Below, piece by piece: positions 1 to 205 of a stretch of 64,000 bases of DNA. The translations under genes and the position numbers were made by a program. The stretch comes from Candidatus Saccharimonadota bacterium (GTDB lineage Bacteria > Patescibacteriota > Saccharimonadia > Saccharimonadales > JAXHMH01): NCBI GenBank assembly GCA_034521515.1, contig JAXHMH010000002.1, positions 216,379 to 280,378 of the forward strand, in the 5' to 3' direction. Under the pieces are notes generated by a model. It did not search any database. It was not told where the DNA came from and saw only the letters and a list, made by a program, of their open reading frames with translations. Positions within the stretch are counted from its first letter, which is position 1, and every line of letters begins with the position of its first letter.

Positions 1-205
1 CCGCCGCTCGCCATCACTTCTCACTAAAGCGCGAAGTGTAGTAGAAAGTTAGAAGTTTTAAAGTTAAAAGTCATTCGACTTTATACTTTTTACTTTATAG
101 ACTTTTTACTGCTTCGAACCTCAGTGAGAAGCATGTTGCCGCTCGACTTGCATGTATTAGGCACGCCGCCAGCGTTCATCCTGAGCCAGGATCAAACTCT
201 CCAAA
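1..205 (-). rRNA. rrs: 16S rRNA, 5' ~200 nt only (gene runs off the left edge)
   Basis: rc of 139-200 = AGAGTTTGATCCTGGCTCAGGATGAACGCTGGCGGCGTGCCTAATACATGCAAGTCGAGCGG (universal 16S 5' end). rc of 1-12 = GGCGAGCGGCGG, which normally precedes ACGGGTGAGTAA. Confidence 0.93.
43..112. repeat. Heptad-phased AU-rich words forming the expanded 16S helix-6 (V1) hairpin
   Basis: Read in 7-nt steps: AGAAAGT TAGAAGT TTTAAAG TTAAAAG TCATTCG ACTTTAT ACTTTTT ACTTTAT AGACTTT TTACTGC. The AAAGT-type arm pairs with the ACTTT-type arm around apex 71-77. Confidence 0.7.

What the first reader, a model, noticed from the sequence alone, without database searches (positions are those of the whole stretch)
17..130. 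16S rRNA helix 6 (V1) carries a ~90-nt AU-rich extension built from the same heptad words as the intergenic arrays
Between the conserved GTCGAGCGG (rc of 139-147) and GGCGAGCGGCGG (rc of 1-12) there are ~125 nt, where E. coli has ~32. The extra sequence folds as one long hairpin: the base is CTTCTCACTGAGG/CTTTAGTGAGAAG and the arms are AAAGT-type words paired with ACTTT-type words, with the apex at 71-77. The words (ACTTTAT ACTTTTT ACTTTAT AGACTTT) are almost the same as those in the ssb-rpsR spacer hairpin (54877-54904) and resemble 28716-28729. Insertions in CPR rRNAs are established knowledge. An rRNA expansion that shares its building blocks with intergenic repeats suggests a common generating mechanism or a mobile hairpin module.
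Basis: partly seen in the sequence, partly recalled or inferred. Interest (0 to 1): 0.62.

Follow-up and report, generated by a model that had tools for sequence, protein, structure and literature searches.

The report
Heptad-repeat hairpin extending 16S helix 6
The small-subunit ribosomal RNA of this Saccharibacteria genome has a real ~100-base hairpin added to the tip of helix 6; its outer part is made of 7-base repeats of the same kind, and the same words, as repeat arrays between genes of the same genome, so a structural RNA is taking part in the turnover of a dispersed repeat family.

Summary
Window 1-207 (minus strand) is the 5' end of a bacterial 16S rRNA. Infernal places 116 nt (window 17-132) where the model has 16, at the tip of helix 6. 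It folds as one hairpin (z = -8.3).

The genome belongs to Candidatus Saccharibacteria (Saccharimonadales). Helix 6 varies from 44 to 218 nt among 49 related loci.

Fifteen independent contigs share this window's basal stem. It is 96% paired and has 5 covarying pairs. In eleven distinct extensions the outer arms are tandem 7-nt words that differ in each genome (lag-7 identity 0.56 against 0.28 in shuffles, z = 18).

Two 99%-identical 16S genes differ by exactly two 7-nt indels, both inside this extension.

In four genomes the outer hairpin has a related copy or word family in nearby spacers on the same contig. L095 is the clearest case (score 93 against a shuffle mean of 23.5). In the window the AAAGT/ACTTT words recur only at 28716, 39435 (pilus operon spacer) and 54834-54906 (ssb-rpsR spacer). 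They are almost absent from 1.17 Mb of relatives.

I could not determine why the unit is 7 nt, or whether the extension stays in mature 16S. The closest precedent I know is the heptanucleotide STRR repeats found in cyanobacterial RNase P RNA.

The parts
1..207 (-). 5' end of the 16S rRNA gene; the RNA starts near 207 and is cut by the window start at about model position 101
   Evidence: Rfam RF00177, 54.1 bits, E 1e-12, model positions 1-101
17..132 (-). The block Infernal leaves unaligned in the apical part of helix 6: 116 nt where the model has 16 nt, about 100 nt extra
   Evidence: cmscan alignment; single hairpin at -44.3 kcal/mol, z = -8.3
111..131 (-). 5' strand of the conserved basal stem (RNA GCUUCUCACUGAGGUUCGAAGC)
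   Evidence: Shared with L015 and L082-L095; 19-pair helix, 96.8% paired, 5 pairs with compensatory changes
17..38 (-). 3' strand of the conserved basal stem (RNA CACUUCGCGCUUUAGUGAGAAG)
   Evidence: Same alignment and pair counts
77..110 (-). Outer 5' arm, heptad words AGUAAAA AGUCUAU AAAGUAA AAAGUAU AAAGUC
   Evidence: TRF period 7 at 78-99; lag-7 identity 0.63 within arms; GC 0.22
73..76 (-). Apical loop (RNA GAAU) closed by GUC/GAC
   Evidence: MFE and centroid structures agree
39..72 (-). Outer 3' arm, heptad words GACUUUU AACUUUA AAACUUC UAACUUU CUACUA
   Evidence: TRF period 7 at 45-71; the outer arms alone fold at -14.4 kcal/mol, z = -2.5
54806..54918 (-). ssb-rpsR intercistronic spacer with inverted AAAGU / ACUUU heptad arrays; same word family as the helix-6 tip; ends just 5' of the rpsR ribosome-binding site
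   Evidence: Pfam SSB and Ribosomal_S18 on the flanking ORFs; TRF 54834-54856 and 54888-54906; SW 39 to the helix-6 insert and 44 to the 39435 locus; weak fold, z = -0.4
39420..39510 (-). Spacer between a T2SSE-type ATPase gene and a T2SSF (pilC-like) gene with ACUUUCA x4.4 and a degenerate AAAGU-type partner arm; best match of the helix-6 insert in the window
   Evidence: TRF 39435-39465, 100% matches; SW 46; Pfam
28695..28745 (-). 5' leader of ORF 28341-28688 with AACUUUU AACUUUU words; a weaker member of the same word family
   Evidence: Exact AAAGTTAAAAGT at 28716; SW 28 to the helix-6 insert

Best explanation
[quoted passage not shown] It has two layers.

1. A basal stem of about 20 bp (CUUCUCAC.GAGGUUCGAA paired with UUCG.GCUU.AGUGAGAAG). 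It is conserved and covaries in a subset of Saccharimonadales, and so behaves like ordinary structured rRNA.

2. A hypervariable outer hairpin whose two arms are complementary tandem arrays of 7-nt words, here AAAGUnn paired with ACUUUnn.

The outer part appears to be generated and remodelled at the DNA level by the same process that produces heptad arrays and inverted heptad arrays in intercistronic spacers of these genomes. That process adds or removes 7-nt units, and it copies or homogenises arrays between loci of one genome. As a result the helix-6 tip carries whichever word family is current in its genome.

The helix-6 tip tolerates this because it is solvent exposed. In the rRNA copy, selection keeps the two arms complementary.

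What is shown: the location, the fold, conservation and covariation of the base, 7-nt periodicity in every member, 7-nt indels, and same-genome paralogues.

What is inferred: that the extension is kept in the mature 16S as an expansion segment, the direction and enzymology of the copying, and the reason for a unit of 7.
For: Location and fold.

The organism is Saccharimonadales, and the gyrB-gyrA-16S gene order is conserved.

Helix-6 (V1) length is 44-218 nt in 49 related loci: 25 have no extension and 24 are extended.

The same basal stem occurs in L015 and in 14 metagenome contigs. L083 and L091 have the base only.

Covariation of the base: 25 pairs, 96% paired against 32-52% when the partners are slid, and 5 pairs with changes on both sides, for example UA 7: CG 6.

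Periodicity: lag-7 identity is 0.41-0.70 in all 11 members, pooled 0.56 against 0.28 +/- 0.015 in shuffles (z = 18). Seventeen extensions of the other type show none, at 0.24.

The outer arms fold better than shuffles in all 8 tested (z -2.4 to -6.9), whereas the intergenic copies do not (z -0.4 to -1.6).

Unit indels: L084 and L085 are 99.0% identical over 1455 nt, and their only two indels are 7-nt events inside the extension.

Same-genome copies, observed score against dinucleotide shuffles:
- L095: 93 against 23.5 +/- 2.2
- L093: 63 against 24.0
- L084: 37 against 20.8
- window: 46 against 28.2
. The L095 copy keeps the order of variant heptads in both arms.

Word specificity: AAAGTNNAAAGT occurs at 4 loci in the 64-kb window but only 3 times in 1.17 Mb of relatives. 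Within the window, the extension, 39435 and 54834 form the only mutually similar set of arrays.

Heptad-array density: 0.22 per kb in the window and 0.27 per kb in contigs with this helix-6 type, against 0.029 per kb in other Saccharimonadales loci.

Tolerance of the site: helix 6 is a spur extending away from the ribosome body, and its tip has been used to host RNA insertions in functional subunits (PMC10269663).
Against: No RNA data exist, so retention in the mature 16S is untested.

No close relative of the window genome was found; all relatives are about 69-72% identical in gyrBA DNA. The history of this particular AAAGU tip therefore cannot be traced.

In the window, the similarity to the intergenic loci is about 65-70% and partly reflects low-complexity words.

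Five of nine contigs with flanks show no same-contig copy, though only 4-13 kb of flank was available in each.

Contigs with this helix-6 type do not group together on a GyrA tree or on a short 16S tree, so the evolutionary scenario is unresolved.

The array-density comparison includes the helix-6 arrays that were used to find those contigs.
Confidence: 0.7

Rival explanations
1. It is an intervening sequence (IVS) in the classical bacterial sense. The extended stem is an RNase III substrate, the insert is cut out during maturation without religation, and the mature 16S is fragmented into a 5' piece of about 70-100 nt and the remainder.
For: The features match known IVSs. It is about 100 nt and AU-rich (GC 0.34). 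It replaces a hairpin tip, has a nearly continuous basal duplex of about 20 bp, and is patchy among relatives. Short uncharacterised insertions in Saccharibacteria rRNA genes have been catalogued, and RNase III-type IVSs have been suggested for CPR 23S sites (PMC11270868). 16S genes with heterogeneous intervening sequences are known (Rainey 1996, cited in PMC4859166).
Against: The basal stem is conserved in sequence and covaries even where there is no outer part (L083, L091). That is expected for a retained ribosomal element. The outer arms have periodic internal loops every 5-6 bp, which are poor RNase III substrates; this point is inference. Functional subunits tolerate insertions at this site. 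Nothing here tests processing.
Confidence: 0.3
2. The outer hairpin is a copy of a non-autonomous mobile palindromic element (MITE- or REP-like, mobilised in trans by a transposase). It transposed into the tip of helix 6 as into other permissive sites. Slippage is secondary.
For: There are paralogous copies with the same ends in one genome: L095 carries CAATGCTCAA...TTGAKCATTG at three loci. The same module type appears at different loci in different genomes: the L082 helix-6 tip resembles window 26033-26140, and the L090 helix-6 tip resembles L082 8992-9060. Copies occur in both orientations. The type is scattered on the GyrA tree.
Against: No target-site duplication is visible at the L095 copies. 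Copies are only 65-80% identical. Words differ in every genome, which fits in situ turnover better than a conserved element. No transposase was identified, and only ten ORFs of the window were scanned against Pfam. Heptad periodicity is not a feature of known MITE or REP families.
Confidence: 0.25
3. The shared words are convergent. Each array arose independently by slippage of local AT-rich sequence, and the resemblance between the helix-6 tip and the spacers is low-complexity coincidence.
For: With many arrays and 7 phases on 2 strands, some cross-genome word matches are expected by chance (my estimate). The window matches are word-level matches.
Against: The L095 copy is collinear in heterogeneous heptad variants over about 113 nt (z = 31.7). 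AAAGTNNAAAGT occurs at 4 loci in 64 kb against 3 in 1.17 Mb. The own-genome query is the top or tied-top scorer in 4 of 9 targets, which I estimate has a probability of about 0.005 if ranks were random.
Confidence: 0.08
4. It is an assembly artefact: a chimeric join or a collapsed repeat inserted into the 16S.
For: The window starts inside the 16S. The only other assembly of this genome that was found breaks 213 nt after gyrA, before the 16S. The first 60 nt of the 16S are conserved enough to allow chimeric joins.
Against: The insert is exactly nested in helix 6 with pairing flanks. The same basal stem sits at the same site in 15 independent contigs from different samples. The words of the tip match spacers tens of kb away on the same contig.
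Confidence: 0.03

Closest known systems
Cyanobacterial STRR (short tandemly repeated repetitive) heptanucleotide sequences, including those inside the RNase P RNA gene of heterocyst-forming cyanobacteria (Vioque 1997, Nucleic Acids Res 25:3471; title seen in the reference list of PMC2858038; the detail that they lengthen a variable helix is from my own memory)
   Same: Both have tandem 7-nt units with several different words per genome. Both are dispersed in intergenic DNA. Both are also found as an extension of a variable, peripheral helix of an essential structural RNA.
   Different: The phylum differs (Saccharibacteria, not cyanobacteria) and so does the host RNA (16S helix 6, not RNase P). 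Here the arrays come as complementary arm pairs on a conserved basal stem, and same-genome paralogy with spacer copies is demonstrated. The RNase P RNA of this window has insertions, but they are not heptad repeats.
Bacterial rRNA intervening sequences (23S helix 25 and helix 45 IVSs of Salmonella and others; 16S IVSs such as Clostridium paradoxum, Rainey 1996)
   Same: Both are AU-rich stem-loops of about 100 nt that replace a hairpin tip. Both are patchy among relatives and vary in sequence.
   Different: IVSs are defined by RNase III excision and rRNA fragmentation, which was not tested here. Heptad periodicity and sharing with spacer repeats of the same genome are, to my knowledge, not described for IVSs.
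Short 'insertion sequences' of Saccharibacteria rRNA genes catalogued by Tsurumaki et al. 2024 (PMC11270868)
   Same: This is the same phylum and the same class of object. In that survey 15 of 37 16S genes carry insertions, and 64 of 66 insertions are 250 bp or shorter with no intron and no homing endonuclease.
   Different: That survey left them uncharacterised. It gives no statement on helix 6, heptad structure, the basal stem or any relation to intergenic repeats, as far as the held text shows.
REP/BIME, ERIC, RUP, Correia and Rickettsia palindromic elements (small dispersed palindromic repeats)
   Same: These are also imperfect palindromes of tens to about 150 nt in intercistronic spacers, present in several copies per genome. 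The Rickettsia elements also invade functional genes.
   Different: Those families have a conserved sequence per genome and no internal 7-nt periodicity. No cognate transposase or target duplication was found here.
Eukaryotic and archaeal rRNA expansion segments
   Same: Both have a conserved base with a hypervariable, repeat-rich, slippage-prone tip on the ribosome surface.
   Different: This case is bacterial. Here the tip shares sequence with non-ribosomal loci of the same genome.

Membership tests
16S rRNA helix 6 (V1) extension / expansion segment | Extra sequence nested in a variable helix, with the conserved flanks intact | tested here: met
   Infernal alignment: 116 nt against 16 nt in the helix-6 apex, with flanks aligned at high posterior probability
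16S rRNA helix 6 (V1) extension / expansion segment | Structure conserved with compensatory changes among relatives | tested here: met
   Basal stem 96% paired with 5 covarying pairs; slid controls 32-52%. The outer arms are complementary in 8 of 8 lineages
16S rRNA helix 6 (V1) extension / expansion segment | Retained in the mature rRNA | not testable with these tools
   No RNA data. The site tolerates insertions in E. coli (PMC10269663)
rRNA intervening sequence (IVS) | Stem-loop that replaces a hairpin tip and is sporadic among relatives | tested here: met
rRNA intervening sequence (IVS) | Excised by RNase III without religation, giving fragmented rRNA | not testable with these tools
   Needs RNA-seq or a northern blot
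Group I / group II intron in rRNA (common in CPR) | Match to intron covariance models, or an encoded homing endonuclease | tested here: not met
   An Rfam E-value search of 1-400 gives only the SSU match and chance-level hits. At 116 nt the block is too short for an ORF
STRR-like heptanucleotide tandem repeats | Tandem units of 7 nt | tested here: met
   TRF period 7; lag-7 z = 18 and lag-14 z = 13 across 11 members; 7-nt indels
STRR-like heptanucleotide tandem repeats | Dispersed at many intergenic loci of the genome, with several words | tested here: met
   14 period-7/14/21 arrays in 64 kb against 0.029 per kb in other Saccharimonadales loci
STRR-like heptanucleotide tandem repeats | Cyanobacterial origin and the STRR consensus words | tested here: not met
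   The organism is Saccharimonadales and the words differ. This is an analogue, not a member
MITE / REP-like mobile palindromic element | Multiple copies with defined ends in one genome | tested here: inconclusive
   L095 has three copies with the same ends. The window has 3-4 loci at word-level similarity. Only partial genomes were available
MITE / REP-like mobile palindromic element | Target-site duplication and a cognate transposase | tested here: not met
   No flanking direct repeats at the L095 copies. No transposase was identified, and only ten of the window's ORFs were scanned against Pfam

The most novel reading that the evidence does not exclude
The helix-6 tip and the heptad arrays in mRNA leaders and intercistronic spacers of one genome may share words because they work together. 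Either the exposed rRNA arms pair with complementary arrays just 5' of ribosome-binding sites (in the window, AAAGU words in helix 6 against ACUUU arrays upstream of rpsR, the pilC-like gene and ORF 28341-28688), or one heptad-reading RNA-binding factor binds both. Either way this would be a genome-specific, co-evolving ribosome-mRNA recognition code rather than neutral repeat turnover.
Probability: 0.06. Interest if true: 0.88.

Novelty: new variant of a known kind. Interest (0 to 1): 0.6.

Why it matters
Helix-6 extensions and short rRNA insertions in Saccharibacteria are known as a class but have not been characterised. This analysis adds three things.

1. One recurrent type has a conserved, covarying base and a tip made of 7-nt repeats.
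2. The tip changes in 7-nt steps.
3. The tip shares sequence with spacer repeats of the same genome.

Together these link rRNA expansion in a bacterium to a genome-wide repeat process. They give a bacterial parallel to the cyanobacterial STRR repeats in RNase P RNA, and a tractable case of how expansion segments can be seeded.

There are practical consequences as well. V1-based primers, probes and chimera filters will mishandle these 16S genes, and assemblies tend to break there.

If the words were shared for functional reasons, through rRNA-mRNA pairing or a common binding factor, it would be a new mode of translational specificity. Nothing here shows that.

Tried and rejected
Recovering the complete 16S of this genome failed. 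The only other contig that encodes the identical GyrA (Logan SRR26473340) ends 213 nt after gyrA, before the 16S.

No close relative was found. The best GyrA match is 81% identical at the protein level, and all gyrBA DNA is about 69-72% identical. The origin of the AAAGU tip could therefore not be traced.

Phylogenetic placement of the helix-6 types gave nothing firm. A GyrA NJ tree and a 330-nt 16S tree were star-like and did not group the contigs that carry this helix-6 type. I draw no clade conclusion from them.

The weak Rfam hit to a plant microRNA precursor (MIR8643, 22.8 bits against a threshold of 135) only reflects a long AU-rich hairpin, and I rejected it.

An intron or homing-endonuclease explanation is rejected, because there is no model match and no room for an ORF.

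The idea that the intergenic partners are strong hairpins or terminators is rejected, because their folding energies are not better than shuffles.

The GTCGAATG motif shared by the helix-6 apex and hairpins upstream of the 16S and of a tRNA pair is only marginally enriched (5 against 1.4 expected; 2 of 100 shuffles reach 5), and I did not pursue it.

The literature did not settle whether known V1 intervening sequences are retained in mature rRNA. The key papers (Rainey 1996, Vioque 1997) are not held.

The window's ORFs were not scanned exhaustively for transposases.

Full report
**What is at the coordinates**

The window begins inside a 16S rRNA gene on the minus strand. Rfam's bacterial SSU model matches 207..1 (54.1 bits, model positions 1-101, truncated by the window start). 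In that alignment the conserved 5' domain aligns with high confidence up to GUCGAGCGGCA and again from GGCGAGCGGCGG. Between them, 116 nt (window 17-132) stand where the model has 16 nt, in the apical part of helix 6 (variable region V1). So about 100 nt are extra.

The RNA of 135..13 folds as one hairpin of -44.3 kcal/mol. Shuffles average -20.2, z = -8.3, and 0 of 200 shuffles are as stable (one search gives the same for 150 nt).
- The base pairs CUUCUCACUGAGG with CUUUAGUGAGAAG.
- The apical loop is at 73-76.
- The arms are AAAGU-type words opposite ACUUU-type words.
- TRF calls period-7 arrays at 45-71 and 78-99.
- GC is 0.22 in the outer part, against 0.45 for the window.

**Organism and relatives**

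The genes next to the 16S are gyrA (799-3318) and gyrB (3321-5372), both on the minus strand. GyrA finds 80 loci in species-representative genomes, almost all labelled Candidatus Saccharibacteria or Saccharimonadales, at 71-81% identity.

The gyrB-gyrA-16S order is conserved, so many of these loci contain the start of the 16S. Among 49 of them, the stretch from CAAGUCGA to GGCGGACGG is 44-56 nt in 25 loci, 78-99 nt in 5, 100-185 nt in 18, and 218 nt in one. Helix-6 extension is therefore common and highly variable in this order.

Most long versions share a different base (GGCUUUCACAG...) and fold into a three-way junction. The window's type is distinct, and among these loci it recurs only in L015.

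**A family with the same base**

I scanned metagenome contigs for the 5' flank plus the start of the basal stem. This found 14 more contigs (L082-L095). All have the basal stem at the same site. L083 and L091 have only the base capped by a small loop, giving a V1 stretch of 85-88 nt. The others carry an outer hairpin of 70-140 nt.

On an alignment of the two strands of the base from 13 distinct sequences:
- 25 pairs are 96% paired, against 32-52% when the partners are slid by 1-3 columns.
- Five pairs show changes on both sides, for example UA in 7 sequences and CG in 6.

The base therefore behaves as structured rRNA. Its recurrence in independent assemblies from different samples rules out a chimeric join as the explanation for this class.

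**The outer arms are heptad arrays in every member**

The outer arms use different words in each genome. Examples are UUAGGGA/UCCCAAU (L088), AGGUUAC/GUAACCU (L089), GGUAGnn (L092), CAGUnnn/ACUGnnn (L094), AUUUACC/GGUAAAU (L082, L086, L087), CAAUGnn (L095) and AAAGUnn/ACUUUnn (window).

Within arms, identity at lag 7 is 0.41-0.70 in all 11 distinct members. Pooled it is 0.56, against 0.28 +/- 0.015 in shuffles (z = 18; lag 14, z = 13). The 17 extensions of the other type show nothing at lag 7, at 0.24.

The outer arms alone fold as one hairpin with periodic small internal loops. They are more stable than shuffles in all eight tested (z -2.4 to -6.9; window -2.5).

**How the tip changes**

L084 and L085 carry 16S genes that are 99.0% identical over 1455 nt. 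Their only two indels are both exactly 7 nt and both lie inside the extension. One is a tandem duplication (GGUUCGA GGUUCGA) and the other is the loss of one unit of the array. This is direct evidence that the tip evolves by gain and loss of 7-nt units.

**Sharing with intergenic arrays**

In the window, AAAGTNNAAAGT occurs exactly at four loci only:
- the extension;
- 28716;
- 39440-39465;
- 54837-54855.

Clusters of these words are found only at the extension, 39415-39487 and 54812-54919, with 0.19 clusters expected from shuffles.

The best local alignments of the insert against the rest of the window fall on exactly these loci: scores 46, 39 and 38, against a shuffled best of 28.2 +/- 2.1 and a maximum of 34. 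In an all-against-all comparison of the window's 14 array loci, the extension, 39435 and 54834 are the only mutually similar set, at 39-46 against 10-25 for other pairs.

The same pattern occurs only three times, singly, in 1.17 Mb of the 95 related loci. The word is therefore specific to this genome.

The partner loci are intercistronic spacers:
- ssb-rpsR (Pfam SSB and Ribosomal_S18);
- a spacer between a T2SSE-type ATPase gene and a T2SSF/pilC-like gene;
- the leader of a small ORF.

Each lies just 5' of a ribosome-binding site. As RNA hairpins these spacer elements are weak (z -0.4 to -0.9).

**Stronger evidence from relatives**

The outer hairpin of L095's helix 6 aligns over about 113 nt, in both arms and with the same order of variant heptads, to L095 4438-4559, upstream of gyrB. 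The score is 93, against 23.5 +/- 2.2 for shuffles. A third element with the same ends sits in the gyrB-gyrA spacer.

L093 (score 63, z = 16) and L084 (score 37, z = 8) also have same-contig copies. Five other contigs, each with only 4-13 kb of flank, do not.

The own-genome query is the top or tied-top scorer in 4 of 9 targets. I estimate a probability of about 0.005 for this if ranks were random.

Cross-genome matches also occur. The L082 helix-6 tip resembles window 26033-26140 upstream of nrdR, and the L090 helix-6 tip resembles an L082 spacer element. Given the number of comparisons, I treat these only as suggestive.

Heptad arrays are about eight times denser in the window (0.22 per kb) and in contigs with this helix-6 type (0.27 per kb, helix-6 arrays included) than in other Saccharimonadales loci (0.029 per kb). 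In five relatives the gyrB-gyrA spacer holds such an array, with a different word in each.

**Interpretation**

The extension is a two-layer structure. The lower layer is a conserved basal elongation of helix 6. The upper layer is a hypervariable tip belonging to a genome-wide population of heptad-repeat arrays.

The tip is remodelled by 7-nt slippage, which is shown. It is also remodelled by copying or homogenisation between loci of one genome. That is shown as paralogy, but the mechanism is not identified. In the rRNA copy the arms are kept complementary.

[quoted passage not shown] This explains why the site is permissive.

Retention in mature 16S is my preferred reading, because the base is conserved even without a tip. 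Excision as an RNase III-type intervening sequence remains a serious alternative, to which I give about 0.3. A mobile palindromic element is possible but lacks target duplications, a conserved sequence or a known transposase. Pure convergence and assembly artefact are disfavoured.

**Comparison with what is known**

Tsurumaki et al. 2024 (PMC11270868) report that 15 of 37 Saccharibacteria 16S genes carry insertions. They also report that 64 of 66 rRNA insertions in the phylum are short and have no intron or endonuclease. They left these uncharacterised.

16S genes with intervening sequences are known (Rainey 1996, cited).

The closest analogue I know is the cyanobacterial STRR family of tandem heptanucleotides, which also occur inside the RNase P RNA gene (Vioque 1997; title seen, details from memory). 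The present case differs in four ways:
- the phylum;
- the host RNA;
- the paired-arm architecture on a covarying base;
- the demonstrated same-genome paralogy with spacer copies.

I therefore rate it a new variant of a known kind.

**Open points**

- Why the unit is 7 nt in every lineage and at every locus is unknown.
- What spreads words within a genome is unknown.
- Contigs with this helix-6 type are scattered on poorly resolved GyrA and 16S trees, and the reason is unknown.
- Whether the extension is present in mature ribosomes is unknown.

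Noticed in passing
window 15642-16148 (-): The RNase P RNA (class A, 235.9 bits) has three large insertions relative to the model. Two of them contain the same 19-mer, ACAGTYTGCAACCAGATTG, at 15702-15720 and 15940-15958 (0.03 matches expected). This is a duplicated hairpin module inside one structural RNA, and it is not heptad-periodic.
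   Followed up: partly
window 20826-20858, 26103-26139, 26605-26643, 28752-28777, 31619-31658, 49692-49722, 52785-52808, 54345-54369, 58268-58300: There are further period-7/14/21 tandem arrays with unrelated words (TTGGAGG, AAATGGT, AGGGTGT, AGTGCCT, TAGTGGT and others). Half of all TRF arrays in the window have period 7, 14 or 21. On the transcribed minus strand several are G-poor and sit just 5' of start codons. Some appear to lie inside long ORFs (20826, 49692, 52785).
   Followed up: partly
window 26033-26140: An inverted ATTTACC/GGTAAAT heptad element lies upstream of nrdR (26191-26613). It aligns in both arms with the helix-6 extension of a different lineage (L082/L086), with score 46 against about 25 background.
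   Followed up: partly
window 72-79 (-), 339-346 (+), 28833-28840 (+), 28856-28863 (+), 46190-46197 (-): GTCGAATG occurs 5 times (1.4 expected; 2 of 100 shuffles reach 5). Sites include the helix-6 apex, a small hairpin in the 16S leader (CCCTGTCGAATGACAGGG), and twice in the spacer next to the tRNA pair at 28865-29012.
   Followed up: no
window 220-355: The 16S upstream region contains two similar GC-rich hairpins flanked by A and T runs: GGAGCCATGTCGTATGACGTGGCC and GGAGCCCTGTCGAATGACAGGGC. They may be bidirectional terminators or leader processing stems between gyrA and the 16S.
   Followed up: no
L084 1369-2222 (and the hit at 1846-1932, -): The L084 16S carries an insertion of about 854 nt, roughly 127 nt from its 3' end, relative to the 99%-identical L085. 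It has a group II intron D1-D4 match, consistent with the position-1400 intron site reported for CPR.
   Followed up: no
L008, L009, L018, L026, L031, L045, L050, L058-L062, L066, L069, L072 (16S V1): A second and more common type of Saccharimonadales helix-6 extension has base GGCUUUCACAG/UGUGAAAGU, a three-way junction, and a recurring GGCUAG-like apical loop. It shows no 7-nt periodicity.
   Followed up: partly
L095 6614-6704, L044 3023-3116, L039 3857-4008, L015 6527-6561, L093 8894-9007: In five relatives the gyrB-gyrA spacer holds a heptad array or inverted array, with a different word in each genome. In the window gyrB and gyrA are separated by only 2 nt and have none.
   Followed up: partly
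L082 627-664 and 443-541: The first 38 nt or so of the 16S are present twice in L082/L086, about 120 nt apart. This is a partial duplication of the 16S 5' end upstream of the gene.
   Followed up: no
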